Shown piece after piece: positions 10,086 to 21,168 of a DNA stretch of 64,000 nt; position 1 is the stretch's first letter, and every line of letters begins with the position of its first letter. Source of the DNA: Vicinamibacteria bacterium (GTDB taxonomy: Bacteria > Acidobacteriota > Vicinamibacteria > Vicinamibacterales > UBA8438); assembly GCA_963578805.1 (NCBI GenBank), contig CAUZDY010000002.1:11954-75953 (forward strand). The letters are read 5' to 3'. The notes beneath the pieces were generated by a model that had not been told where the DNA came from, did no database searches, and saw nothing but the letters and a program-made list of their open reading frames with translations. The position numbers were made by a program, and so were the translations under genes.

Positions 10086-12308
10086 CTATCCCAGAAGTCT
10101 CCACACCTGAGCCACGAGAAAGCAGACCGTCAGTCCCATGACGAGTGGCAACAACGCTGCCAGTGTCGTCCATTTCACGCTCTTTGTTTCGCGATAAATG
10201 GTGTAAATGGTGGTGGAACACGGGTTGTGCAAAAGGCTGAAAAGCATAAGATTGACAGCCGTTAAGAGCGTCCACCCACCCGCTCGAAGCAACTGGCCCG
10301 TCGCGTCGGCGCTGTCGAGCTCGAACATGACCCCCGCCCCCGATCCCGCTCCGCCGACGTCGGCGGTGAGCACGGTAAGCATTAAGACGGTGGGAATGAC
10401 GATTTCGTTGGCCGGAATAGCCACGACATACGCGAGCAGGATAACCCCATTGAGTCCAATGAAGATCCCGAACGGATTCAGCCACGTCGCGGCATGCTCC
10501 GCGAGGCTTGCTTCGCCCATGTAGATATTCGAGCCCAACCAGATCACCGCGCCCGCAGGGGCCGCAAAGACGATCGCGCGCCAGAGCACGATCAGCGTGC
10601 GGTCAATCAGTGACGTATAGAGGGTCTGGAGGATGCGCGGCGGGCGATACGGGGGCAACTCAAGACTGAAGCTCGTCGCTTCGCCACGAAGGACGGTCCG
10701 TGACAACAGCCAGGACGTCACAAACATTACTAAAATTCCAAGAACCGCGATACCGACAACCGCGGCCGCCGACACGAGTCCCGCGAGCCGTGCTGGCGCC
10801 AGTGCCCCAATGAAGATCGTCGCGATAAGGATCTGTGTGGGCCATCGCCCGTTGCAAAGTGAAAAATTATTCGTGATGATTGCGATAAGTCGTTCCCGAG
10901 GACTGTCAATGACGCGGGTGGCCACCACACCGGCCGCGTTGCACCCAAAGCCCATACACATCGTGAGCGCCTGCTTACCATGGGCTCCGGCCGAGCGAAA
11001 GAGCGCATCGAGGTTGAATGCGACACGCGGAAGGTAGCCAAAATCCTCGAGTAACGTGAACAACGGGAAGAAGATGGCCATTGGTGGAAGCATGACCGCG
11101 ACCACCCAGGCCGTTGCCAGATAGATTCCGTCACAGACGAACCCATTCAGCCACCACGGAAGACCAACCGCACCACCAAGACCCTTCAGCCAAGGATGCG
11201 CCGTATCAATGAGGAGCGTCGCGAGCATCCCGGATGGAACGTTGGCACCCTCGATCGTGATCCAGAAGACACCGGCGAGTATCGCAAGCATCAGCGGAAA
11301 GCCGAGCCACCGGCTCGTCAGTAGTGCGTCAAGGGTTCGGTCAACATCGAAACCAGCCTTCTTGAGCCCTCGCATCTGAACCTTCCCGGCGATCTTCTCT
11401 GCGGCGGCATAGAGACGCTCGCTAATCCGGTCGTGAAAGTCGATTGGGAGGTCCCACCGAAACCGTCGCGCGGTATCCAGCACGTGCGTTCGTGCGGTCT
11501 CCGTTGTGACCGCGTGATCAACGATGTCTGGCCCATCACCCAACTGCCCCAGCTCTCCCGATCGAACCGCCTCAATTACCGCCTCGTCGGCGTTCAAGAG
11601 GCGGAGCGCGACCCACCGGGAATTTGGCACGCGCGGAAAAGTATCGTCAACCACCTGCGCGAGCGCGGCCACCGTGTCCTCGACCTCATCGGCATGCCGG
11701 GCCAGTCGGTACGGCCGGGTCAGAGTTTCGCCGACAGAGAGACGGTGGGCGGCGTCGAGTAGGTCATCGATCCCGACTCGGTCTTTCGCGATTCCGGTAA
11801 TAACCGGTACTCCCAGCTCTCGCTCTAAAAGCCTCGCTTCGACGGCGATGCCCCGCCGCCTGGCCTCGTCAACCAGATTAAGGTAGACGACCACACGGTC
11901 AGTGATATCCAGGATCTGCAGGACGAGGTTGAGGTTCCGTTCAAGACGAGTGGCATCGACCACGGCGATAGTGACATCGGGTCGGCCGAATAAAATGAAG
12001 TCGCGCGCGACCTCCTCGTCCACGCTCCCAGCCTGGAGCGAGTATGTGCCAGGAAGGTCGACGACCTTCATCCGCTTTCCCTGGTGAGTAAAGACTCCCT
12101 CAGCGCGCACGATCGTCTTGCCCGGCCAGTTGCCAGTATGCTGCCGAAGCCCGGTGATGGCGTTAAACACCGTGCTCTTTCCAACGTTGGGGTTCCCAGC
12201 GAGCGCGATCAGCACGTCCCACTTGTCTGGGCTCAGGCCGAGCCGGACCAGACTGTCGGTTCGATGCTGTGAGCAGCCGACGCACGAGCCTAATGACAAC
12301 CCAGACAT
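10086..12308 (-). CDS. feoB: Ferrous iron transporter FeoB (N-terminal G-domain + membrane permease)
   Basis: The GNPNVGKSTVFNAITG P-loop, DLPGTYSL, and long polytopic C-terminal region are typical of FeoB. Confidence 0.95.
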   Translation of the reverse strand: MSGLSLGSCVGCSQHRTDSLVRLGLSPDKWDVLIALAGNPNVGKSTVFNAITGLRQHTGNWPGKTIVRAEGVFTHQGKRMKVVDLPGTYSLQAGSVDEEVARDFILFGRPDVTIAVVDATRLERNLNLVLQILDITDRVVVYLNLVDEARRRGIAVEARLLERELGVPVITGIAKDRVGIDDLLDAAHRLSVGETLTRPYRLARHADEVEDTVAALAQVVDDTFPRVPNSRWVALRLLNADEAVIEAVRSGELGQLGDGPDIVDHAVTTETARTHVLDTARRFRWDLPIDFHDRISERLYAAAEKIAGKVQMRGLKKAGFDVDRTLDALLTSRWLGFPLMLAILAGVFWITIEGANVPSGMLATLLIDTAHPWLKGLGGAVGLPWWLNGFVCDGIYLATAWVVAVMLPPMAIFFPLFTLLEDFGYLPRVAFNLDALFRSAGAHGKQALTMCMGFGCNAAGVVATRVIDSPRERLIAIITNNFSLCNGRWPTQILIATIFIGALAPARLAGLVSAAAVVGIAVLGILVMFVTSWLLSRTVLRGEATSFSLELPPYRPPRILQTLYTSLIDRTLIVLWRAIVFAAPAGAVIWLGSNIYMGEASLAEHAATWLNPFGIFIGLNGVILLAYVVAIPANEIVIPTVLMLTVLTADVGGAGSGAGVMFELDSADATGQLLRAGGWTLLTAVNLMLFSLLHNPCSTTIYTIYRETKSVKWTTLAALLPLVMGLTVCFLVAQVWRLLG

Positions 12309-13351
12309 CAGGCCACCTCGGCAGCGTCGTGGTTCTCAGTCCGCTCGACTACGATCCAGGACGCCTGTCTCCTACGTAGCGCAATCAGCGCACCCCGTAT
12401 TCGGTAGGCCACGGGGTCCCCGGCCGCACTGACCAACTCGGGTGTGATCTCGGTACCACGTACGACTCCGAGGTCGAGTAGTCTTCGACGCTGAGTACCC
12501 TGACAGGCGCCGGATATCTCAATCACTCGCACCGTCTCATCCGGCTGCACATCGAGGAGAGTGATCCCATCCGACTCGGCGTGCGTGCCTGCTGGTAACT
12601 GCCTCACACTGACATTTCGCGCAGCGACCGAGTCGAGAGTCCACTCGCGGCCACCGGTGCGCACGCGAACGCCACGGTCGGTTCTCGCGATGACTGTAAG
12701 ACGTCCTCCGAGCACCAGGCCGTCATCCAGGAGCGCGTCGTAGATCTCACGTGGTTCGTCCTCGAGATGGACGACCTCCACCGTGCAGCCGGTGTCGGCA
12801 CTCAGAAGTCCGATGCCCGGCGCCGGCGGGATCTCTCCATCCGATGTAGGGATTGGATCGCCGTGCGGGTCCCAGGTCGGATGACCCAGTCTTGACTCAA
12901 GACTATCGGTTTGCTCGGGCGACAGCGAGTGCTCCATCCGCTCCGCTTGGTCGTGCCATTCGATAGGCGGTACGCCGGTTCGATCGGCCAGATACCGTTC
13001 CCAAAGACGATGGCTGCGAACGATCCGTACCGCTGTTTGCACCCCGTCGTGGGTCAGCGCCGGTCCGTCGCCATCCATCTGGACTAGACCCATTTCCGCC
13101 AAGCGGGAAAGGAGCGGGGCTGCCTGCGCCGTGGAGACCTCCAACCTTCCGGCAAGACTCTCCAACGAGCACGCCTGTCCGCTCTGCTCGCACATGAATA
13201 CATGCTTCAATGCATCCTCCAACCGGACGCGTTCGCCCAATCGGGATCGGCGCAGGAGGCGTGGCGCGACACCAACCCCTGGCCAGGCCAGGAGCGCGAG
13301 GAGAAGAGTGATCCCGAAGAACACAATAAGCGTAAAACCAGGGCCTACCAT
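12308..13351 (-). CDS. Membrane-anchored DtxR-family regulator fused to two FeoA/SH3-like domains
   Basis: N-terminal TM helix (FTLIVFFGITLLLALLAW). DtxR core (RIVRSHRLWERYLAD...HDQAERMEHSLS...DPHGDPIP). Two FeoA-like modules follow; the last (VRVIEISGACQGTQRRRLLDLGVVRGTEITPELVSAAGDPVAYRIRGALIALRRRQASWIVVE) is canonical FeoA. The stop overlaps the feoB ATG by 1 nt. Confidence 0.75.
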   Translation of the reverse strand: MVGPGFTLIVFFGITLLLALLAWPGVGVAPRLLRRSRLGERVRLEDALKHVFMCEQSGQACSLESLAGRLEVSTAQAAPLLSRLAEMGLVQMDGDGPALTHDGVQTAVRIVRSHRLWERYLADRTGVPPIEWHDQAERMEHSLSPEQTDSLESRLGHPTWDPHGDPIPTSDGEIPPAPGIGLLSADTGCTVEVVHLEDEPREIYDALLDDGLVLGGRLTVIARTDRGVRVRTGGREWTLDSVAARNVSVRQLPAGTHAESDGITLLDVQPDETVRVIEISGACQGTQRRRLLDLGVVRGTEITPELVSAAGDPVAYRIRGALIALRRRQASWIVVERTENHDAAEVA

Positions 13352-13438
13352 CGATATGTGCTCATTCCAGCTTGAGACTGAGTCCCAGTCGCGCGCAATC
13401 TGATCCAGGCGCAGAAATATTTGATATTTGACAAATTA

Positions 13439-13456
13439 AATTTTGATGATTCAAAA
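13439..13456. promoter_or_regulatory. Inverted repeat ATTTTGA-N4-TCAAAAT in the AT-rich divergent feo/ideR promoter region (candidate metalloregulator operator)
   Basis: Seen directly. It overlaps a TTGACA(13427-13432)-N18-CAAAAT promoter-like arrangement facing the IdeR-like gene. The surrounding ~90 bp is strongly AT-rich in a GC-rich genome. Confidence 0.4.
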
Positions 13457-13523
13457 TATGCAAATACATCTTGATACCCCGCATGCGACAAGTCAAGCTT
13501 AGCTCTGCGGAAGGCTGAAACAT

Positions 13524-14207
13524 TTGCCACCTACAAGCACTGTTGAGAACTATCTCAAGGCCATCTTCAAGGCCCAGACGGCCCAAGGTAAAGAGAAGCA
13601 ACTGGTCTCAATGGGTCAGCTGGCAGCTTCACTCGACGTCGTGCCAGGCACAGCGACGACCATGGTCAAGGCGCTGGCTGAGTCGGGGCTAGTCCACTAC
13701 GAGCCGTATGCGGGTGTTCGTCTAACGGATGCCGGCCACAAACTTGCGGCTTTGGTCCTTCGACGCCACCGTCTGATGGAGTTGTTCCTCGTTAAGATCA
13801 TCGGGATGAGCTGGGCTGAGGTTCATGACGAGGCCGAACGCCTGGAGCACGCGGCATCAGATCAGCTGATCGAGCGGATCGACGTCATGCTGGGGTGCCC
13901 GTCAACCGATCCGCATGGTGACCCGATCCCGAACTCCGAGGGCACCGTGGTAACGCGCGAATACGAAACCCTACTCACCTGTCCCGTCGACACGCCCGTT
14001 GTCCTGGCTCGTGTCACCGACCAGGACGCGGAGTTTCTCCGTTTCCTGGAAGGGAACGATCTAACACCAGGTCAACCGATTAGCGTGGAAATCCGAGATG
14101 CCGCCGCAGACCAAGTGGTGGTGCGTGCAAAGAACAACCGGCAGATCATGATCGGGATGCGTGCCGCTGCGAAACTACAAGTCGCACCGGCGGACTCGGT
14201 GTCGTGA
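13524..14207 (+). CDS. DtxR/IdeR/MntR-family metal-dependent transcriptional repressor
   Basis: VENYLKAIF..., VPGTATTMVKALAESGLVHY wHTH, RRHRLMELFL...HDEAERLEHA...DPHGDPIP metal sites, C-terminal SH3-like domain. TTG start with GGAAGG upstream. Confidence 0.9.
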   Translation: MPPTSTVENYLKAIFKAQTAQGKEKQLVSMGQLAASLDVVPGTATTMVKALAESGLVHYEPYAGVRLTDAGHKLAALVLRRHRLMELFLVKIIGMSWAEVHDEAERLEHAASDQLIERIDVMLGCPSTDPHGDPIPNSEGTVVTREYETLLTCPVDTPVVLARVTDQDAEFLRFLEGNDLTPGQPISVEIRDAAADQVVVRAKNNRQIMIGMRAAAKLQVAPADSVS

Positions 14208-14317
14208 GTCCCAGCCTCGTCACTCTGACGGTCATCCTAGAACGTGGTAAACAGCTTTATCTCCGTCCGTTTCGTTGAAGTCGTTTTGTGCGCGAGAGAG
14301 CAGCGATTAGCGCGGAT

Positions 14318-14950
14318 TTAGTCAACGAATACTTCGGCAATCACGATACCACTCTCGCCCGCGACCGCGTACAACAAAAAGACGCGTCCGTCCTCCTCGG
14401 AAATGGCCGGGTCTCTAAGCGGATTCACATGGCCGTAGGCCGTGCTGCCCATCGACGGCTCAAGCGGTGCGTCGGCTCCTTCCCAGTCGAATTCTGGACG
14501 CAGCAGCTCAACGGGCGCTGTTTCCGACCAGCCGCTCCAGTCACCGGACAGGTCGATCGTACTCAACAGGATCCGCTCAGGAACCTCGCCTGCCTCGGTC
14601 CAGAACACGAACAGGGTGTCACCACGCACCAGCATCGCCGAGTGACGCATGTTGGGATTGAAGAGACGCGGTCCCTCTCCGAACCCGCCAAGTGGGTCGC
14701 GAGACCGGTAGAACTGCCCCGGCATGGACATGGCGTAGGTGTAACCACCGTACGGGAAGACACGCATATCGGTCCGGCCCAGCATGTCCGGTCGCGCTTC
14801 GAAGTGAACGCCATCCAGTGAAGTGGCCACGCGAGAGACTTGACGACTAACCCCGTCGTGACCATGGGAGTACACGACGATCCGACGGTTCTCATTGTCG
14901 ACATGCACGTCGGGGGAGGCTATGTGCGGCGTCGTGACCTCCATCAGCAA
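14318..14950 (-). pseudogene. Beta-propeller glycosyl-hydrolase-like protein, probably 5'-truncated
   Basis: The C-terminal blade motif LRDPAISEEDGRVFLLYAVAGESGIVIAEV and WTEAGE... repeats resemble GH32/43/130-type propellers. Only ~210 aa. The 5' end collides head-on with the HNH ORF, and in-frame stops lie just upstream. Confidence 0.4.
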
Positions 14951-15341
14951 GTCGTGCGGTATCGGTCGGCGGCCGGCCCGCTCGGCCCGCAGACGCTCGA
15001 GTTCCTCTTACTATGAGCGTGATCCCAAGCTGAGGGCGCAAGCCATCGCAATACACGAGACTAAATGCATGGTCGAGTTGTGCAGCATGGATTTCCACAA
15101 GAGGTACGGCCCACATGGAGAAGACTTTATTGAGGTCCACCACCTCACGCCCCTAAGCACACTCGATCCCGCTGCATTGAAACGCACCGCTCCCAAAACA
15201 GACATGGTGGTTGTCTGCTTAAACTGTCACAGGATGATTCATCGTCGTCTCGACAAAATCCTTACGCTTGAGGAAGTGAACACCATGATCAGAAACCAAG
15301 CGAAAAGCCCTGGATTTGAACCGCCTGTCGGTCAGCGGTAG
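14895..15341 (+). CDS. HNH endonuclease domain protein (possibly N-terminally truncated)
   Basis: FIEVHHLTPLS ... VVVCLNCHRMIHRR is an HNH motif with a Cys zinc-ribbon pair. The recognisable domain begins near 14985. Locally low GC. Confidence 0.7.
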   Translation: MSTCTSGEAMCGVVTSISKSCGIGRRPARSARRRSSSSYYERDPKLRAQAIAIHETKCMVELCSMDFHKRYGPHGEDFIEVHHLTPLSTLDPAALKRTAPKTDMVVVCLNCHRMIHRRLDKILTLEEVNTMIRNQAKSPGFEPPVGQR

Positions 15342-15358
15342 GCTAGGCGCTTCAGCCG

Positions 15359-15850
15359 ATGACCTACACGACGATACGAGGAGCACGCCAACACTCGGCG
15401 GCGAACCAGCAACATGTGGATCGCGCAGTGGACGTGTTATTCACGGAGTTCGGAGAAGCCCGTGCGTCCCCCGACAAGCTACGTGAGAACCTGACTAACT
15501 CGCGAAACGTCCTGCTTTCATCCGACGCAGGAGTGGCACTCGTGCTGAGAGCTGGCGAGGTGGGCCAGAAACTCTGGCAGTTGTGGGTGGAGGAGAAAGC
15601 CCGAGGCCAAGGCATTGGTAGTGCGCTACTGAAACACATCATCTCGACCTACACGGCTGACCATGTGATGGAGTTGGAGTGCCCTGAGGCACGCGAAAAC
15701 TTCTACAAGCGCCACGGCTTTCACCCACTCTTTAGGGCTAGGGGGGTTGCCCGCCTCTATATGGCCGGTCCTGGAGAGAGTGAGTCAGACGTTCTGCATC
15801 GGCTGCCCGCAAAGCATCCCGCTAGACTCGTTCGGTCGGATGCGTTATGA
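15359..15850 (+). CDS. GNAT-family N-acetyltransferase
   Basis: QLWVEEKARGQGIGSALLKHII (acetyl-CoA binding motif A, R/Q-x-x-G-x-G/A) and FYKRHGF. Confidence 0.8.
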   Translation: MTYTTIRGARQHSAANQQHVDRAVDVLFTEFGEARASPDKLRENLTNSRNVLLSSDAGVALVLRAGEVGQKLWQLWVEEKARGQGIGSALLKHIISTYTADHVMELECPEARENFYKRHGFHPLFRARGVARLYMAGPGESESDVLHRLPAKHPARLVRSDAL

Positions 15851-15867
15851 GAAAAGTGCAGTTCCCA

Positions 15868-16077
15868 CTACCACGGCCTTTTGACCGTGATCGCCGCCGC
15901 CATCTCGGCCCGTTCGCGGGCTTTTCCGACCGCTCTGTCTGTTAGGTCCCGAGCGGCCCCGAGGGCCACGCTTTCAGACTCGGCCGTGAGCAGGCGTTCG
16001 AGGACATCGACGGCGCGTGGCGCGAGACCTCTGATCCTCGCCTCAGCGAGTTCCAGCGCCGCCTCCGCTTTAGCCAT
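15868..16077 (-). CDS. Small helical hypothetical protein (69 aa)
   Basis: ATG start and GC-rich third positions. The sequence MAKAEAALELAEARIRGLAPRAVDVLERLLTAESESVALGAARDL... looks helical. No function assignable. Confidence 0.35.
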   Translation of the reverse strand: MAKAEAALELAEARIRGLAPRAVDVLERLLTAESESVALGAARDLTDRAVGKARERAEMAAAITVKRPW

Positions 16078-16209
16078 TGCTTACGGGCTTTTGCCGCCGT
16101 GCGTCTCGCAGATGGCCTGTCCCTGCATAGCCGAGCGTGCCGGTTATCGATCACCGGTTCGTTTTGTTCCATGAGGTCAGTCGGCTCAATAAGGTCACCT
16201 TGTTTGAAA

Positions 16210-16330
16210 CCAAAAATGGCGGCTACAAATTCCGGGCGAGTATATATACATATTGGACCCCCCTCGCGGTTTTCGGTTCGTTCAAGATAGCCCCACAAAA
16301 AACCGATACCCGGGGATGCTAAAACCCCCG
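16210..16330. repeat. Intergenic repeat element, copy A
   Basis: Aligns with copy B (18101-18224). A 67-nt imperfect hairpin (16210-16276) is centred on TATATATACATAT. A GC hairpin (16311-16330) with an adjacent A-run (16297-16302) gives hairpin + T-run on the minus strand. Confidence 0.6.
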
Positions 16331-16514
16331 TCTGGGCCGGTCATATCCGTGGGCAGCCAGAAGGTTTGTGGGCAACGCTGAGAAGCTCAAAAGCCTTAGT
16401 GTTGCAGTAGCCCGCTTTAGGTCGTCAATACGACTCCCGCCGCCTCCACCATGTTCCCCTATAAACACAGGGGCCTTACCATGTCACTTGCCCGTCTCCC
16501 CGCACGAGGGAGAG

Positions 16515-16952
16515 CTAGTCGCCGGACTCCAACTGTTTCTTGATCATGCCCTGGATGTACTCGAACTGCGTCCGTCCACTCTCCGTTTCTTTGGAGGCCC
16601 ATTCCACATTTTGGAACGCCGTCGGCGACTCGTCCGCTCGGATTTGGTCCAAGTAGGGCGCGATCTTAGCAAAGAAGAAAAGACCCTCCCCATTGTTCTG
16701 GGTCAAGTAATCGGCATTGACGACACCGCTTCTTGCCATCCCGAAGACCATTTCCCAATAGGAGCTCAGCTGACGCCATGCACCGTTTAAAGGATGGTCG
16801 AAATTGCGGAGCTCTTTGACATCGTCATAGCTCTTGGGCCAGAACTGGAAATTGATGGCATCACGATTCTCTCGCGTCTTGGCTTCCCGGCGCATCTCGT
16901 AGACGCGAAGCACCAGATCGGCATCATGGTAATCGGGCTTTTCGGCTGACAT
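16515..16952 (-). CDS. Conserved-looking hypothetical protein (145 aa)
   Basis: Clean ORF (MSAEKPDYHDADLVLRVYEMRREAKTRENRDAINFQFWPKSYDDV...). No catalytic motif recognised. Lower GC than the flanks. Confidence 0.6.
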   Translation of the reverse strand: MSAEKPDYHDADLVLRVYEMRREAKTRENRDAINFQFWPKSYDDVKELRNFDHPLNGAWRQLSSYWEMVFGMARSGVVNADYLTQNNGEGLFFFAKIAPYLDQIRADESPTAFQNVEWASKETESGRTQFEYIQGMIKKQLESGD

Positions 16953-17142
16953 TTCGTTAACAAGTTCCTTCTAAACAAAAATTGGATTGATTCGGAAATT
17001 CGAGGAGACTCATTCTACCACGCGGTCCCACCTCCGCAGACGGAGGATGCAATGTGGGAGTGGCTACTGACTTTTGGATCCCGTTACAAAAGTAGCGGGT
17101 CAACGGGGACGGGGGTGAGTCACGCGGGTGCGCGGCGTCCCC

Positions 17143-17619
17143 TCATTGCGGAGGAGGAGGCGGCGGCGGCGCGACCGGAGCCCCGTCCTCTATCCGGACG
17201 TTCGGAAGCGCCTCCTGTAGGTTGGCTATGTCCGCGTCGGTGAATAGTGGAAATGGCGTCGGAGTGCTCAGATACCGGCTACCGCTGAGTGCGAGCTGAC
17301 GCAACGCAGGCATCTTCTGGAAGTGGACGAGACCGGCGGCAGTGACCTGGGTGCCCCAGAGATAGAGCGTCTCCAGCGCCGCCAACCCCGTGAGGTGCAC
17401 CACGCCCGCGTCGGTGACCGCAGTGCGGGAGAGGCGCACCTCTACAACCTCCCCCTGTTCGTTTTGGCTCACGCGGCAGCAGGAACCACCGCCGAGTGTC
17501 TCCACCAGCGTCTCCAACGTCGTAGGAGACGTCGGTTCCTGCTGTGCCGTGACCGGCGTACTGAACGACACGGCGGCAACGGCGACAACGATCAGACGTG
17601 CGTGGTGATGGGTCATCAC
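17143..17619 (-). CDS. Secreted leucine-rich-repeat protein with poly-proline tail
   Basis: Signal peptide (ARLIVVAVAAVSFSTPVTAQQ). LRR units (LSRTAVTDAGVVHLTGLAALETLYLWGTQVTAAGLVHFQKMPALRQLAL). C-terminal PPPPPPPQ. Confidence 0.7.
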   Translation of the reverse strand: MMTHHHARLIVVAVAAVSFSTPVTAQQEPTSPTTLETLVETLGGGSCCRVSQNEQGEVVEVRLSRTAVTDAGVVHLTGLAALETLYLWGTQVTAAGLVHFQKMPALRQLALSGSRYLSTPTPFPLFTDADIANLQEALPNVRIEDGAPVAPPPPPPPQ

Positions 17620-17935
17620 GTCTCTAGCCTAGCGCGGCGCGGCGGGCGGTTCAATGCGACGGCTCTCCGTCTCGCTATGTGTGATCACTTTCACAGAGGC
17701 TCTGTGCGCTACGTCATGGTGAGCCTGGTCGTGACTGCCTACACTGTGCGGATGGGCCGCAGACGGACACAGCAGCACTGACGGACGAGCAGTTGGAAGG
17801 AGTCGCAGGGGGCTTTGATATTGGTCCCATTGGTGGGCGTATGCGGGTTGGTTTCAGATCAATTGCCCCGCTGCCTTCGCCCTAACTTCAAGCGCGGATG
17901 AGCCGCAGATATTACCAGCAAGGAGCAAAGACGAT

Positions 17936-18091
17936 GTGTTAACCCTCGAAGAGATAGATGCGCTTAGCGGCGGCGTGGTGCGACGACGACGTCTTCAAGC
18001 GGCGAGACGACTGAACCTGGCGAGTGGGCCTTTTCCCTGTCCGATGACGCCCGCAAGCGTGCCTACACCCTGTCCACTGCGGCGTCGCTGA
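17936..18091 (+). CDS. Candidate double-glycine-leader peptide precursor (51 aa sORF, not in ORF track)
   Basis: GTG start 10 nt after AAGGAG (17920-17925). Translation: MLTLEEIDALSGG-VVRRRRLQAARRLNLASGPFPCPMTPASVPTPCPLRRR. The leader matches the LSxxELxxIxGG consensus. Confidence 0.35.
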   Translation: MLTLEEIDALSGGVVRRRRLQAARRLNLASGPFPCPMTPASVPTPCPLRRR

Positions 18092-18100
18092 TGCCTCAGA

Positions 18101-18224
18101 CCGAAAATTGGCAGCTATACATTTCTGGCGGGCATATATGTAGATCGGCCCCCCCCTGCGGTTTTTGGATCCAAATAAATCGGGCCAGAGAAAAAGGCCG
18201 ACCGGGGGTGCCGAACCCACCCCC
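18101..18224. repeat. Intergenic repeat element, copy B
   Basis: Aligns with copy A. Hairpin 18101-18168 is centred on ATATATGTAGAT. GC hairpin GGGGGTG/CACCCCC (18204-18224) has an adjacent A-run (18191-18195). Confidence 0.6.
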
Positions 18225-18325
18225 TCAAGTGACATGAGTTGACCATTGGGCATCAGAACTGGGCATCAACAGCGACCAGGCCCAGGACTCAGGTCGCCGA
18301 CTGAGCCATTTACCTCAATGTTTAC

Positions 18326-18390
18326 TGGTGCCGAGGGCGGGGTCGAACCCACACGGAGCGTAAACTCCACGGGATTTTGAGTCCCGTGTG
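18326..18390 (-). pseudogene. tRNA-Leu(CAA) 3' fragment (anticodon arm, long variable arm, T-arm, acceptor 3' strand + CCA); 5' half absent
   Basis: Minus strand reads ACGGGA-CTCAAAA-TCCCGT (anticodon CAA), GGAGtttacgCTCC variable arm, GTGGG-TTCGAC-CCCGC, CCTCGGC-A-CCA. No complementary GCCGAGG 5' acceptor strand or D-arm is present. The upstream sequence is the stop region of the di-haem gene. The T-loop is one nt short. Confidence 0.6.
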
Positions 18391-18398
18391 GTGAACGC

Positions 18399-19595
18399 CT
18401 AGAGCGAGTGCAGAAACGCCATGAGTTCGGCGAGTGCCGTCGGGGACACGCCTCCGAGACGCTCCATCGCTGGGCGTGCCTCTCGATCGTGTTTCTGTAA
18501 CGCCTCCGCGATCGTGGCCGCGCTGCCGTCGTGCAGGAGTGGTCGACGGAACCGGAGGCCCCAAAGAGCCGGGGTACGGATCTCTTCCGGTTCACCGTCG
18601 GCTTGGCGAATGCCGTCTCCGGTACCGATGTCATGCAGCAACAGATCGGAAAAGAGTGGCACCGGTTGTCGGTCGAACAACGGATTCGGATTCGTTCCGG
18701 TCATCAGTGTTGGCACGTGACACGTCGCACATCCAACTGCTCTAAACACCTCTTCCCCGGCCAATGAATCGGGTGTGGTCGCCCCGCGAGGCAAAGGAGC
18801 CAGAAACTTCATGAACGCCTCAAAATTGTCAATGCCGCGAAGACCGGTCCCTAGGTCGGGAACGTCCTCCGGGTCATCGATCGGGTCGCAGTCGCGAAGT
18901 TGAGCATCGGAAAGATGGAACGTAAGCTCCTCGGGAAACAGGTCGTTGGTGATCCCCATCTCATTGCGATACGCATCACCGCTAAAGTCGAGAAGTGAGG
19001 CCACCTGGGACTTCCACCCGAATTTACCAACTCGACGATCCCCAGAGGATCGGTCAGTTACCATGGCCGCCCGGCCACTCACACCATCTAGGTCCAGGTC
19101 AGACGGGTCCTCGAGGGCACGGATTGAGTCGTCCGAAATCGCCTCGACCAGCCCAGCGCCAAAAACTGGGATGGGAACCCGTCGGGCGATAATATTCGCC
19201 TCGGGGGGAATGACAGACTGACAGCCGTGGGTGGGAATCGAGAACAGTTGAAAGAGTGAGCCGCGTGACGGGTCGAAGTCCTCGAACTCGCCGTTGGCCA
19301 AACGCCTTCCAGCCCGCACGGTTGTCACCGGCGCGATTCCACCGATGGCCGGGATACTGTGGCATTCTGCGCAACTGGTACCATTGTAGGCAGGACCCAG
19401 ACCTTCTTCTGCGGTTTCGACCTCGAGAAAATCCTCCAGACCCAACCTGAACGCCTCGAACTCAGCTGGTGTTAGACCCGGAAGAGGATCTCCAGGTTGT
19501 GGAGACCGCTGTGCATCGGGAGCGACCTGCAACATCGCGGCGCCGACCACCGTCACAACCACGATCCTCAGTATGCGATCACGTATCGAGGTCAT
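18399..19595 (-). CDS. Periplasmic di-haem cytochrome c peroxidase-like protein (resembles the DUF1111 family)
   Basis: Signal peptide. Two CxxCH motifs (CAECH, CATCH). GLGPAYNGTSCAECH and FGWK motifs as recalled for DUF1111-type di-haem enzymes. Confidence 0.75.
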   Translation of the reverse strand: MTSIRDRILRIVVVTVVGAAMLQVAPDAQRSPQPGDPLPGLTPAEFEAFRLGLEDFLEVETAEEGLGPAYNGTSCAECHSIPAIGGIAPVTTVRAGRRLANGEFEDFDPSRGSLFQLFSIPTHGCQSVIPPEANIIARRVPIPVFGAGLVEAISDDSIRALEDPSDLDLDGVSGRAAMVTDRSSGDRRVGKFGWKSQVASLLDFSGDAYRNEMGITNDLFPEELTFHLSDAQLRDCDPIDDPEDVPDLGTGLRGIDNFEAFMKFLAPLPRGATTPDSLAGEEVFRAVGCATCHVPTLMTGTNPNPLFDRQPVPLFSDLLLHDIGTGDGIRQADGEPEEIRTPALWGLRFRRPLLHDGSAATIAEALQKHDREARPAMERLGGVSPTALAELMAFLHSL

Positions 19596-19984
19596 GGCTC
19601 GACGACGATAATTTCGCCCTGCATGAAGTTATGCCCGGCACCGCACAGCCGGGAGCACTCAAACCGAAACCTCCCGACTTCGTGCGCCTCAAAGAGTACG
19701 ACCGCTTCGCCCTGCCGGCGTTTCGGCACGGTGAGATTCACGTTGCCGCCAACAATTCGAAAGCCATGCATCGTGTCATCACTGCGGACCCTCAGCTCCA
19801 GTGTCGTCCCGACCGAAACCCGAATCTCAGACGGCGTAAAAGTGAACCGCTCAGCGACGATTTCCACGATGTGATGCTCCTGCGTGCTAGCCCAGTTGGA
19901 ACTCGGCACCAACACGGTCGCCACAACCGCCAGTATCAGGACACAGATCCGACGCAAGATTGCCTGCGTCATTAGAACCACCAT
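19592..19984 (-). CDS. Small periplasmic cupredoxin with CuA-type ligand set
   Basis: MHGFRI ... ECSRLCGAGHNFM gives H-x36-C-x3-C-x3-H-x2-M, the ligand pattern of the cytochrome oxidase subunit II CuA domain. N-terminal signal/anchor. Overlaps both neighbouring genes. Confidence 0.75.
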   Translation of the reverse strand: MVVLMTQAILRRICVLILAVVATVLVPSSNWASTQEHHIVEIVAERFTFTPSEIRVSVGTTLELRVRSDDTMHGFRIVGGNVNLTVPKRRQGEAVVLFEAHEVGRFRFECSRLCGAGHNFMQGEIIVVEP

Positions 19985-21168
19985 CCGAGACCTATGTTCA
20001 ACGAATCTGGCGCCTTGACGACGTCACTCTGACTACGGAGCACGGTGTAGTCGAGCTTGACGGCGATGTCGGGGTCTGGAAAGTAGGTGAGTCCGAATAC
20101 CAAAGCATCTCGGTCGAATTCCTTCAGCGGCTGAAACCCGGTCGGCATCCGGTACTGGGTGTCGAAGTTTTCGTATCTCACAAACAGCGCAAGTTCCCGT
20201 GGCGCCGGCAGCGGACTCACGAAGTAGGAGCTCTCCAGGTAGAAGCCTCGAACCTGCCTGGCCACGTTTGGACTCACACCAACTGTACGCTGCCTGGAGG
20301 CGTTGAGTTCGCCCATTCCGTCCAGGTAGCCGTGGGCATACTCGCCACGGGTCTCAAACTCTCCATAACGATACCGCCCGTCAAACTCGACCATCGTCAC
20401 GCTCGTATCGAATCGTAGGTCCTGGAAGCCGGTGTCGCCACTCCAAAAACTGGTGCCGAGCACGAGCCCCGGATGTCCGACATACTCAAGTCGTCCGGTA
20501 CCGGCCATCGAACGTGCGTTCGATTGAACACCCTTTTGCCGTCCCTCTCGAATTCCCTGGTCTGCGCTGAACCCTGTGGAGTCTAGGGGTGACATCAGGT
20601 AGGCTCGATACCGAAAACCGTGACGAAACTCACCGTGTACGCCGACCCCGCTATCAAACCAGGTCGTCGGAACGATCACGGTATCGACGAACGGTCGCTC
20701 TACCCCATGGAAGACGGGCGGTTCGTGCCGTTCGTTGATGATTCCGACCGGGGCGAGCAGCATGCCGGCACGCACATTGAAGGAACGGGTGATCAGGAAG
20801 TCCACGTACGCCTGCTCCAACTCAAGCTCTCCCGCGGTCTCGTTCGACACCACGGCGTGTTCGAGTTCCAGTTCGGACACAAACCGGATGCGGTCGGAGA
20901 AGCTGTGTGAGAAGAGCAAGACGAAGCGATGAAAATCGAGTCGAGCGTCCTCATCTTCCCTGTTGTTGTAGTGAAAATCCATGTATCCGGAAACCGGCCC
21001 GGTCAAGGAACCTGAGGCCGGATCCCCGGGGTCTGACCCTGACTGGCGTGTTTCAGAACCCAGAGTCTGTGCACTCGACGGTCCAGGCATCGCCATGAAT
21101 CCGAGGAGCATCACAGACGGAATCCATACGATTTTATGTAATAAAAATCTTAATTTTGGGAATATCAT
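19972..21168 (-). CDS. Outer-membrane beta-barrel porin-like protein
   Basis: Signal peptide ending SSA-QT. Alternating beta-strand pattern. C-terminal ...NIGLGWWF (terminal Phe typical of OMPs). Start set at Met 21168 because the promoter and operator occupy 21177-21220. Confidence 0.7.
   Translation of the reverse strand: MIFPKLRFLLHKIVWIPSVMLLGFMAMPGPSSAQTLGSETRQSGSDPGDPASGSLTGPVSGYMDFHYNNREDEDARLDFHRFVLLFSHSFSDRIRFVSELELEHAVVSNETAGELELEQAYVDFLITRSFNVRAGMLLAPVGIINERHEPPVFHGVERPFVDTVIVPTTWFDSGVGVHGEFRHGFRYRAYLMSPLDSTGFSADQGIREGRQKGVQSNARSMAGTGRLEYVGHPGLVLGTSFWSGDTGFQDLRFDTSVTMVEFDGRYRYGEFETRGEYAHGYLDGMGELNASRQRTVGVSPNVARQVRGFYLESSYFVSPLPAPRELALFVRYENFDTQYRMPTGFQPLKEFDRDALVFGLTYFPDPDIAVKLDYTVLRSQSDVVKAPDSLNIGLGWWF

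What the first reader, a model, noticed from the sequence alone, without database searches (positions are those of the whole stretch)
17936..18091. Unlisted 51-codon sORF with a colicin-V-type double-glycine leader (MLTLEEIDALSGG) and an Arg/Pro/Cys-rich 38-aa core
This ORF is below the 60-aa cutoff of the ORF track. GTG 17936 lies 10 nt after AAGGAG (17920-17925). It is the only start-type codon in this frame back to the in-frame TGA at 17816. Translation: MLTLEEIDALSGG / VVRRRRLQAARRLNLASGPFPCPMTPASVPTPCPLRRR. The first 13 residues fit the double-glycine export-leader consensus (L-S/T-x-x-E-L/I-x-x-I/L-x-G-G). They share 8 of 12 positions with the colicin V leader MRTLTLNELDSVSGG. The predicted core is very cationic (9 Arg, no acidic residue) and proline-rich, with two Cys separated by 10 residues. 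That differs from Gly-rich class II microcins, so if real it would be a new peptide type. It sits in the lower-GC mosaic segment and ends 9 nt before repeat element B. Caveats: the leader is at the short extreme. TTA, ATA and CGA codons are atypical for this genome. No C39-peptidase ABC exporter or immunity gene is in the window. GC-rich DNA generates many chance ORFs.
Basis: partly seen in the sequence, partly recalled or inferred. Interest (0 to 1): 0.75.

Follow-up and report, generated by a model that had tools for sequence, protein, structure and literature searches.

The report
Truncated double-glycine peptide gene cassette
The 51-codon ORF is not a chance ORF: it is a shortened, recombinant copy of a rare, undescribed family of small exported-peptide precursor genes from uncultured marine bacteria, and it sits in a 4.2-kb strain-specific insertion where it may no longer be properly expressed.

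Summary
The ORF (17936-18091, GTG start, AAGGAG 10 nt upstream) is exactly as described. Its reading frame is genuine. Nine protein clusters (62-87 aa) from other marine metagenome contigs share the motif LTLxEIDAISGG, then VVRRRRL, then 2-4 'PxPCPxTP' repeats. Against the most divergent copies pN/pS is about 0.4 in this frame and 1.0-1.9 in the other two.

Intact homologues start at an upstream ATG and have 23-35-residue leaders. In three loci they lie divergently next to a PF05118 Fe/2OG hydroxylase gene, which suggests a RiPP-type precursor.

The window copy is a chimera. The 5'UTR of a sister peptide family (Nif11-related leader MTTQQNDTAALTDEQLEGVAGG) is joined at the 8-mer AGACGATG to the middle of the family-2 leader. 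The sister family's ATG (17934) is therefore out of frame (M-C-stop), and only 13 leader residues remain behind GTG 17936. The upstream sister gene in the same array has lost its RBS and ATG.

No leader HMM matches. No C39/ABC exporter or hydroxylase is in the window. The double-glycine reading is supported. The colicin-V/microcin label and full functionality of this copy are not.

The parts
14211..18399 (.). 4.2-kb strain-specific insertion that carries the peptide array. It also carries HNH, GNAT, DUF4760 and LRR genes.
   Evidence: Relatives with 86-89% nt identity (L022, L024, L026; contigs of 4.5-7 Mb) align to window 12001-14210 and 18400-20991. In them only about 45 nt separate the DHOR gene from the Fe-dependent repressor gene.
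17680..17695 (+). Perfect CRP/FNR-type palindrome TGTGA-N6-TCACA upstream of the array, inside a conserved promoter-proximal block (about 17676-17763).
   Evidence: It is the only match in the window (0.06 expected). The same box lies about 100-120 nt upstream of the first peptide gene in L005, L007-L011, L013 and L015.
17766..17885 (+). Decayed family-1 peptide gene (…DTAALTDEQLEGVAGG/FDIGPIGGRMRVGFRSIAPLPSP*). It has lost its RBS, its ATG and its first codons.
   Evidence: Compared with the intact genes in L005 (P0001, 69 aa) and L007 (P0007), a 40-nt deletion has removed AAGGAG and the ATG, and one core repeat is missing. The family has 19 homologues.
17891..17936 (+). Family-1-type 5'UTR copy (CGGATGAGCCGCAGATATTACCAGCAAGGAGCAAAGACGATG). 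It contains the SD AAGGAG (17920-17925) and the crossover 8-mer AGACGATG (17929-17936).
   Evidence: The left part aligns with family-1 5'UTRs. From AGACGATG onwards the sequence aligns with the interior of family-2 leaders, codons E-D-D-V.
17934..17942 (+). Out-of-frame remnant of the family-1 start codon: ATG TGT TAA (M-C-stop). It overlaps GTG 17936 and is better spaced from the SD (8 nt).
   Evidence: Read from the sequence. The homologous ATG is the true start in family 1.
17936..17974 (+). Retained 13 codons of the double-glycine leader (M/V-LTLEEIDALSGG).
   Evidence: Conserved as LTLxEIDA[IV]SGG in all family-2 members. Residues -12 L, -7 I, -4 L and GG fit the determinants in PMC6363468.
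17975..18091 (+). Core VVRRRRLQAARRLNLASGPFPCPMTPASVPTPCPLRRR plus stop. It holds two 33-nt 'PxPCP' repeat units (18020-18042 and 18053-18075).
   Evidence: Homologues have 2-4 such units. P0024 and L015c end in ...PCP[ML]RRR, like the window.
18086..18215 (.). A diverged second copy lies at 16192-16330.
   Evidence: Copies were found after arrays in L007-L012, L015 and L021. Covariation gives no support for an RNA structure. There is a terminator-like hairpin on the minus strand at 18214-18198.

Best explanation
The sORF is an authentic but N-terminally truncated, recombinant member of a small uncharacterised family of double-glycine-leader peptide precursors (called 'family 2' here).

Intact members are 62-87 aa long:
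- a 23-35-residue leader ending in LTLxEIDAISGG;
- a cationic block, VVRRRRL;
- 2-4 eleven-residue PxPCPxTP repeats.

In three loci the gene is divergently paired with a PF05118 Fe(II)/2-oxoglutarate hydroxylase gene. The family therefore most likely encodes RiPP-type precursors. The inferred pathway is modification of the core, then cleavage after Gly-Gly and export by a C39-peptidase ABC transporter encoded elsewhere.

In the window, recombination at the shared 8-mer AGACGATG placed the body of a family-2 gene behind the 5'UTR of a sister family. That sister family (family 1) has a Nif11-related leader, MTTQQNDTAALTDEQLEGVAGG. The event removed the native ATG and at least 14 leader codons, and it left the family-1 ATG two bases out of frame (M-C-stop). 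Only GTG 17936 can open the frame.

The result is the last cassette of a two-gene array behind a CRP-type box. The first gene of that array is already a pseudogene, and the array lies inside a 4.2-kb strain-specific insertion.

Shown: family membership, coding constraint on the frame, chimeric structure, accessory location.

Inferred: cleavage and export at Gly-Gly, hydroxylase modification, and that this copy is an orphan cassette translated weakly or not at all. I lean towards decay (about 55:45) rather than full function.
For: Family membership:
- Nine homologous protein clusters with E-values from 6e-19 to 9e-11.
- An exhaustive profile search finds only 6 genuine 50%-identity clusters. 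They include P0047 (distant, keeps SGG and the GPxPCP repeats) and P0048 (same leader, unrelated core).

Coding constraint:
- Window versus L018, L019a and L019b gives dN/dS of 0.20-0.27.
- pN/pS is 0.38-0.47 in this frame and 1.0-1.75 in the other two frames.
- 26-31 of the 50-56 differences per comparison fall at third codon positions.
- The other two frames contain stop codons.
- The Arg block is kept through synonymous changes (CGA/CGT versus CGC/CGG).

Chimera: alignment A6.

Sister family and its decay in the window.

Leader homology:
- hhalign gives 90% probability, in register on the GG.
- A 106-aa precursor next to related arrays passes the TIGR03798 Nif11-leader cutoff (47.8 bits against 32.3). 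Its core resembles family-1 cores.

Hydroxylase adjacency: L019, L018, and L015, where the gene is split by a transposase.

Accessory insertion.

Other decayed copies: L008 and L009 have a frameshift plus a stop; L015c has a stop.

Minimal leader: the last 13 leader residues suffice for cleavage by LahT150 (PMC6363468).
Against: - No curated leader HMM hits the sORF or any family-2 member, even at E<=10.
- No Peptidase_C39/ABC exporter was seen in the window, nor within 10 kb of the arrays in the related loci examined. Cleavage and export therefore rest on analogy.
- The block just after GG (VVRRRRL) is as conserved as the leader itself. That is unusual for a leader/core boundary.
- Against 'decaying': the ORF is intact and keeps all 20 family-invariant residues. 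Its length difference from P0024 is an in-frame loss of 11 codons, one repeat unit. It has a strong SD. Its 13-residue leader equals the experimentally defined minimum.
- The window sequence is identical in five contigs from different samples, so population data say nothing about constraint.
Confidence: 0.6

Rival explanations
1. The window copy is a fully functional minimal-leader precursor. Translation starts at GTG 17936, either directly or by reinitiation after the overlapping M-C-stop mini-ORF. The 13-residue leader is recognised by a PCAT encoded elsewhere in the genome, and a cationic Pro/Cys-rich 38-mer is secreted.
For: - Intact ORF with the SD 10 nt upstream.
- All family-invariant residues are retained.
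- An in-frame 33-nt repeat difference, and the same ...PCPxRRR end as P0024.
- Thirteen leader residues are sufficient for LahT150.
- In-frame fusions between family-1 5' ends and family-2 bodies recur elsewhere (P0021, P0022, P0025: MTTEQNNTAA-RKPH...). Placing family-2 bodies behind family-1 expression signals may therefore be selected.
Against: - The better-spaced ATG 17934 competes and is out of frame.
- The neighbouring cassette is dead.
- No hydroxylase or exporter is nearby.
- dN/dS against close copies is 0.66-1.07.
- The N-terminal leader part, which a modifying enzyme may need, is missing.
Confidence: 0.3
2. The Gly-Gly is not a processing site. Family 2 encodes small unprocessed proteins, for example Cys-Pro-motif metal- or haem-binding peptides or nucleic-acid-binding poly-Arg peptides. 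The resemblance to export leaders is convergent.
For: - Conservation continues straight across the GG into VVRRRRL.
- There are no leader HMM hits.
- No PCAT was found near any copy.
Against: - In-register profile match to the family-1/Nif11-type leader.
- P0048 keeps the leader up to SGGV and then carries an unrelated core.
- Family-2 genes sit in arrays with other GG-leader peptides that have unrelated cores.
- The positions at -4, -7 and -12 fit the C39 determinants.
Confidence: 0.08
3. A chance ORF in GC-rich intergenic DNA with a fortuitous leader-like motif.
For: - It was not called by the gene finders used for any of the five contigs that carry it.
- An overlapping 104-aa antisense ORF shows how easily ORFs arise in this DNA.
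Against: - Homologues at 60-85% identity keep this frame, with pN/pS of about 0.4.
- The motif count is 2 against 0.015 expected.
Confidence: 0.02

Closest known systems
Nif11-type and NHLP-type double-glycine leader RiPP precursors (Haft et al. 2010; prochlorosin ProcA and LahA substrates of LahT, PMC6363468)
   Same: - Leader ending in hydrophobic-x-G-G, with hydrophobic residues at -4, -7 and -12.
- Many precursor genes with one conserved leader and unrelated cores.
- Precursor genes are often remote from the transporter.
- A true TIGR03798 precursor sits next to related arrays, and its leader end is homologous to family 1. Family 1 in turn aligns with the sORF's family.
   Different: - The sORF family has no Nif11 domain and fails TIGR03798 and every other leader HMM.
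- Its leaders are 23-35 aa (13 aa in the window), against about 60-80 aa.
- No LanM, rSAM or other class-defining maturase is nearby. The only recurrent neighbour is a PF05118 hydroxylase.
Colicin V / class II microcins and class II bacteriocins with short double-glycine leaders
   Same: A short leader of about 15 residues. Export by a C39-ABC transporter is the presumed mechanism.
   Different: - The core is strongly cationic and Pro/Cys-rich with 11-residue repeats, not Gly/Ala/Ser-rich.
- There is no immunity gene and no CvaA/CvaB-like pair in the window.
- The source is an uncultured marine bacterium.
- The short leader is an artefact of recombination.
GG-leader RiPPs tailored by Fe(II)/2OG Asp/Asn hydroxylases (CinX in cinnamycin; SmaO, PMC12186529)
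   Same: A precursor with a GG motif next to an Fe/2OG hydroxylase gene. Family-2 genes in L018, L019 and L015 have a divergent PF05118 gene. PMC12186529 shows that such enzymes hydroxylate Asp in GG-leader precursors.
   Different: - There is no lanthionine synthetase or ATP-grasp partner.
- The target residue is unknown, and the window core has no Asp.
- The hydroxylase is absent from the window.
- It matches LpxO and OlsC models only far below their cutoffs.
Proline-rich cationic antimicrobial peptides (Bac7, oncocin, apidaecin); comparison from my own knowledge only
   Same: Composition rich in Arg and Pro. This hints at a possible intracellular target if the peptide is antimicrobial.
   Different: Those peptides are eukaryotic and share no homology with this family. 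They lack the Cys-containing PxPCP repeats and have no GG leader.

Membership tests
Double-glycine (C39/PCAT-processed) leader peptides | Gly-Gly (or GA/GS) at positions -2/-1 | tested here: met
   SGG lies at residues 11-13 of the sORF. S-G-G is invariant in 11 aligned family members and is kept in the distant members P0047, P0048, P0050 and P0051.
Double-glycine (C39/PCAT-processed) leader peptides | Hydrophobic residues at -4, -7 and -12, shown by mutagenesis to be needed for LahT150 (PMC6363468) | tested here: met
   The sORF has L(-4), I(-7) and L(-12). The criteria were read. These residues are conserved in the family.
Double-glycine (C39/PCAT-processed) leader peptides | Conserved leader joined to variable or unrelated cores | tested here: inconclusive
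   P0048 has the family-2 leader with an unrelated core, and the arrays mix GG-leader peptides with unrelated cores. However, VVRRRRL just after the GG is itself invariant in most members.
Double-glycine (C39/PCAT-processed) leader peptides | Match to curated leader profile HMMs (TIGR01847, TIGR03798, TIGR03793, NF038167 and others) | tested here: not met
   No NCBIfam or Pfam family at E<=10 for the sORF, for an extended version of it, or for P0021, P0024, P0026, P0027 (leader region) or P0028. The sister family gives only weak hits, E=0.014-0.19.
Double-glycine (C39/PCAT-processed) leader peptides | Cognate C39-peptidase ABC exporter (with or without an HlyD-like partner) in the locus or genome | tested here: not met
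   None was found among the window ORFs I scanned (ORFs of about 320 aa and above, plus the neighbours of the sORF), nor in the precomputed Pfam lists for L001. None lies within 10 kb of the arrays in L007-L012 and L015-L017. Whole genomes could not be searched.
Double-glycine (C39/PCAT-processed) leader peptides | Demonstrated cleavage after GG and export | not testable with these tools
   This needs an in vitro protease assay or peptidomics.
Class II microcins of the colicin V type | Gly/Ala/Ser-rich, non-cationic core, with immunity and CvaAB-type export genes in one operon | tested here: not met
   The core has 9 Arg, 8 Pro and 2 Cys. The neighbours are LRR, DHOR, DUF4760, GNAT and HNH genes.
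Nif11-like leader peptide family (TIGR03798) | Nif11-type N-terminal domain scoring above the TIGR03798 cutoff | tested here: not met
   No hit for the sORF or its family. The 106-aa neighbour of related arrays does pass, at 47.8 bits against a cutoff of 32.3.
RiPP precursor (enzyme-tailored peptide) | Recurrent co-location with a modifying enzyme | tested here: inconclusive
   For the family, a PF05118 hydroxylase lies divergently adjacent in L019 and L018, and in L015 in IS-split form. For the window copy, tblastn with the hydroxylase found no match in the window.
Family 2 of this report (LTLxEIDAISGG-VVRRRRL-PxPCP repeat peptides) | Sequence homology in the same frame, with purifying selection | tested here: met
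   E-values from 6e-19 to 9e-11 against nine clusters. dN/dS of 0.20-0.27 against divergent members.

The most novel reading that the evidence does not exclude
Family 2 together with its PF05118 Fe/2OG hydroxylase defines a new RiPP class: hydroxylated, cationic PxPCP-repeat peptides. Its precursor genes, along with Nif11-related family-1 genes, would be reshuffled as cassettes by recombination at short shared 5'UTR/leader sequences. These cassettes lie within CRP-box-controlled arrays bounded by a conserved 125-nt element. On this reading the window copy is a working minimal-leader (13-aa) variant produced by that shuffling.
Probability: 0.2. Interest if true: 0.65.

Novelty: new variant of a known kind. 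Interest (0 to 1): 0.5.

Why it matters
Double-glycine-leader peptides are a well-known kind, but this family has no curated model and, as far as my literature searches reached, no description. Its distinguishing features are a poly-Arg block, PxPCP repeats and a recurrent PF05118 hydroxylase neighbour.

If the family is confirmed, three things follow:
- It adds a new precursor/maturase pairing from uncultured marine bacteria with large genomes (related strains yield contigs of 4.5-7 Mb).
- It gives a natural example of leader swapping and leader truncation by recombination between precursor cassettes. That bears on how RiPP libraries diversify.
- The window copy is a natural test of the 13-residue minimal C39 recognition motif that was defined in vitro.

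For genome annotation, it shows that an uncalled 51-codon ORF can be validated by family-level dN/dS even when the local copy is probably decaying.

Tried and rejected
- tRNA, tmRNA and Rfam scans of the window found nothing. A tRNA-like 3' fragment that I read by eye at 18318-18395 (-) is not supported by ARAGORN even at 80% of its normal thresholds.
- An exact look-up of the 51-aa product found no called gene anywhere.
- DNA pattern scans with GTTAACCCTCNAAGAGATAGA gave one true locus in metagenome contigs (L013) and one chance hit in genome contigs, a Syntrophobacteraceae gene reading RELTLEEIEKIY. Cluster look-ups gave no organism names either.
- I considered that a different frame (A[FY]xLS repeats, open for 89 aa in L008/L009) was the real one. 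I rejected this because that frame has stops in most copies and pN/pS above 1.
- I considered that the 1-nt deletion in L008/L009 refuted coding. I rejected this once intact, more divergent homologues were found.
- A consensus RNA fold of the 125-nt 3' element showed no covariation support.
- A profile search of PDB sequences with the family alignment found nothing.
- The sigma-70 promoter scan found no promoter, and found only a minus-strand terminator-like hairpin.
- A literature search for PF05118 together with RiPP found no paper.

Full report
**The observation.** GTG 17936 to TGA 18091 encodes 51 codons, translating to MLTLEEIDALSGG/VVRRRRLQAARRLNLASGPFPCPMTPASVPTPCPLRRR. AAGGAG lies at 17920-17925, and an in-frame TGA at 17816 has no other start codon between it and the GTG.

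First, an ATG at 17934 overlaps the GTG (ATGTG) and reads M-C-stop. Second, a leader-like motif, ALTDEQLEGVAGG, lies 146 nt upstream behind a repeat of the same upstream sequence (GCGGATG[G/A]GCCGCAGA). It has no start codon of its own.

A specific leader regex hits the six-frame translation of the window only at these two places. It hits 0.015 times on average in simulated sequence. The regex was defined after seeing the data.

**Source of the window and the sister family.** The window is JGI contig Ga0310120_10000093. Four further contigs from other samples carry the sORF region unchanged.

One of them, L005, differs just upstream. There the upstream unit is an intact, gene-called 69-aa ORF: MTTQQHDTAALTDEQLEGVSGG followed by a Pro-rich core, preceded by AAGGAGcgcagacgATG.

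That peptide has 19 homologues with an almost invariant 22-residue leader and hypervariable cores. They are often in tandem and lie on contigs of up to 2.3 Mb. I call this family 1. It gives weak hits to several double-glycine leader HMMs, at E=0.014-0.19. In several genomes it lies beside a 106-aa protein that passes the TIGR03798 Nif11-leader cutoff. That protein's leader end (LSDEQLGGVAGG) and core (FIVGPIHHGGRMRG) resemble family 1.

In the window, the family-1 unit has lost 40 nt containing its RBS, ATG and first codons, plus one core repeat. It is a pseudogene.

**The sORF's own family.** A protein search with the 51-aa product found nine clusters of 62-87 aa, with E-values from 6e-19 to 9e-11, on contigs of up to 2.75 Mb. 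I call this family 2. Its architecture is:
- a leader, such as MTAKPHGDAPD- or MT(TEQNNTAA)RKPHAVETCEDDV-, followed by LTLxEIDAISGG;
- an invariant VVRRRRL block;
- 2-4 eleven-residue PxPCPxTP repeats;
- a variable end, such as ...CPWTP[EK]D or ...CP[ML]RRR.

An exhaustive HMMER search of 1.84 billion representatives found only six genuine 50%-identity clusters, so the family is rare. They include P0047 (distant, but with SGG and the GPxPCP repeats) and P0048 (same leader, unrelated core).

**Evidence that the frame is coding.**
- The sORF frame is open in all divergent copies, while the other two frames carry stops.
- Window versus L018, L019a and L019b gives dN/dS of 0.20-0.27, with dS at or above 1.
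- pN/pS is 0.38-0.47 in this frame and 1.0-1.75 in the shifted frames.
- 26-31 of the 50-56 differences per comparison fall at third codon positions.
- The RRRR block is kept through synonymous codon replacement.
- Against close copies, dN/dS is 0.66-1.07, based on few changes.
- Some copies are dead. L008 and L009 have a 1-nt deletion and a CAA-to-TAA stop. L015c has a stop at the same Gln codon.

**The window copy is a chimera.** Alignment A6 shows that window 17891-17936 matches family-1 5'UTRs (…ACCAGCAAGGAGCnnAGACGATG). From AGACGATG onwards the window matches the interior of family-2 leaders, where GAAGACGATGTGTTAACC encodes E-D-D-V-L-T.

The shared 8-mer AGACGATG (17929-17936) is the crossover point. 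The event had three consequences:
- It removed the native family-2 ATG and 14-22 leader codons.
- It put the family-1 ATG two bases out of frame.
- It left the Val codon GTG 17936 as the only possible start, 10 nt after the SD. The dead ATG is 8 nt after the SD.

Other family-2 genes are in-frame fusions to family-1 N-termini (MTTEQNNTAA-RKPH…; MTDEQLDEREEAMTRKPH…). Recombination between the two families is therefore recurrent.

The window core has one 33-nt repeat fewer than P0024 and ends the same way (…PCPLRRR against …PCPMRRR). It retains all 20 family-invariant residues.

**Is it a double-glycine export leader?**

For:
- SGG is invariant.
- L(-12), I(-7) and L(-4) are exactly the positions whose mutation impairs the C39 protease LahT150. 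The last 13 leader residues suffice for cleavage in vitro (PMC6363468).
- The family-2 leader profile aligns in register on the GG with family 1 (hhalign 90%).
- P0048 swaps the core after SGGV.
- The arrays mix GG-leader peptides with unrelated cores.

Against:
- No curated leader HMM hits any family-2 member.
- Conservation continues across the GG into VVRRRRL.
- No C39/ABC exporter is present among the window ORFs I scanned (those of about 320 aa and above, plus the sORF's neighbours). None lies within 10 kb of the arrays in the related loci examined.

The whole genome could not be searched.

**Context.**
- A PF05118 (Asp/Asn-hydroxylase-type, Fe/2OG) gene lies divergently next to family-2 genes in L019 and L018. 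In L015 it is split by a transposase. GG-leader RiPPs tailored by Fe/2OG Asp hydroxylases are known (PMC12186529). The window has no such gene.
- The array lies behind a perfect TGTGA-N6-TCACA box at 17680-17695. This is the only one in the window (0.06 expected), and it is conserved upstream of arrays elsewhere.
- The array is followed by a conserved element of about 125 nt. Covariation gives no evidence that this element forms an RNA structure.
- Relatives at 86-89% nt identity have DHOR and the Fe-dependent repressor gene about 45 nt apart. Window 14211-18399 is therefore a 4.2-kb strain-specific insertion.
- Codon usage: TTA and ATA are rare in the window's genes, CGA is not. GC3 is 0.54 for the sORF and 0.68 for the 24 genes sampled. 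The insertion is not clearly lower in GC than its flanks.

**Verdict.** The sORF belongs to a real, undescribed family of double-glycine-type peptide precursors with a conserved Arg/Pro/Cys-rich repeat core. It is not a colicin-V-type microcin, and its 13-residue leader is a recombination product.

I lean about 55:45 towards an orphan cassette with impaired translation rather than a working gene, for these reasons:
- the competing out-of-frame ATG;
- the dead neighbouring cassette;
- the absence of a hydroxylase or exporter nearby;
- the loss of the N-terminal part of the leader.

The intact frame, the strong SD and a leader of exactly the minimal length keep the functional alternative open.

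Noticed in passing
window 17680-17695; also L005 5299-5314, L007 9882-9897, L008 3291/9882/19268, L009 2773/9621/17706/18788, L013 120-135, L015 9674/12656: A perfect CRP/FNR-type palindrome, TGTGA-N6-TCACA, lies about 100-120 nt upstream of the first gene of essentially every peptide array examined. It is the only such site in the 64-kb window (0.06 expected). This suggests the arrays are controlled by a CRP-family regulator.
   Followed up: partly
window 18086-18215 and 16192-16330; L007 10709-, L009 10393- and 19296-, L012 622-, L015 13233-, L021 321-: A conserved element of about 125 nt (consensus GATGATGCCTCAGACCGAAAAATGGCGGGTATACATTCCGG…GCGGTTTTCGG…AAAAAGGCCGACCGGGG) follows the last peptide gene of the arrays. 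Partial copies lie upstream of arrays. It has no Rfam match and no covariation support for a structure. It carries a terminator-like hairpin on the minus strand. It may be a recombination or mobile-element boundary.
   Followed up: partly
window 14211-18399: The whole segment between the DHOR (DUF1111) gene and the Fe-dependent repressor gene is absent from five related long contigs (86-89% nt identity), where the two genes are about 45 nt apart. The insertion carries HNH, GNAT, DUF4760 and LRR genes as well as the peptide array. In strain variant L005 the far side of the array abuts entirely different DNA.
   Followed up: yes
L019 74-790(-), L018 3-170(-), L015 10392-10718(-) + 12146-12547(-): A PF05118 (Asp_Arg_Hydrox) Fe/2OG oxygenase gene is divergently paired with family-2 peptide genes. 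In L015 it is split by a Transposase_mut insertion, and the adjacent peptide copy carries a stop codon.
   Followed up: partly
L008 9356-9676(-), L009 9095-9415(-), L011 9095-9415(-), L015 9112-9420(-): A 102-106-aa Nif11-leader precursor sits divergently upstream of family-1/2 arrays. The L008 copy scores 47.8 bits on TIGR03798 (cutoff 32.3). Its core (FIVGPIHHGGRMRG…) resembles family-1 cores, so family 1 looks like a short-leader derivative of a Nif11-type precursor.
   Followed up: partly
L008 19821-19823, L009 18260-18262, L015 about 13200: Independent family-2 copies carry a stop at the same Gln codon (…PCP[LM]*PMRG…, where intact copies have Q). This may be recurrent truncation after the second repeat or shared ancestry of decayed copies.
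   Followed up: no
L027 828-1112 (NCBI GCA_035092465.1 JAYKCK010056939.1): A third, unrelated GG-type peptide (…MNSELTMDQMASASGG/HMDKAAVDVAKDVV…) lies between a family-1-like gene and the distant family-2 member P0047. This is a mixed array of three different double-glycine peptides.
   Followed up: no
window 18318-18395 (-): By eye this looks like the 3' part of a long-arm tRNA: a stem-loop with CAA in the loop, then a stretch ending in …GGTTCGACCCC…CACCA. It directly abuts the DHOR stop codon. ARAGORN does not call it even at relaxed thresholds, so it may be an att-site remnant or nothing at all.
   Followed up: partly
L008 3410-3637 and 3929-5056; L009, L010 and L011 equivalents: Peptidase_M10 (matrixin-type) genes recur a few hundred bases downstream of another family-1 peptide gene (core TPHYTDFTGRFQFVGG…). 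The surrounding regions are dense with transposases.
   Followed up: no
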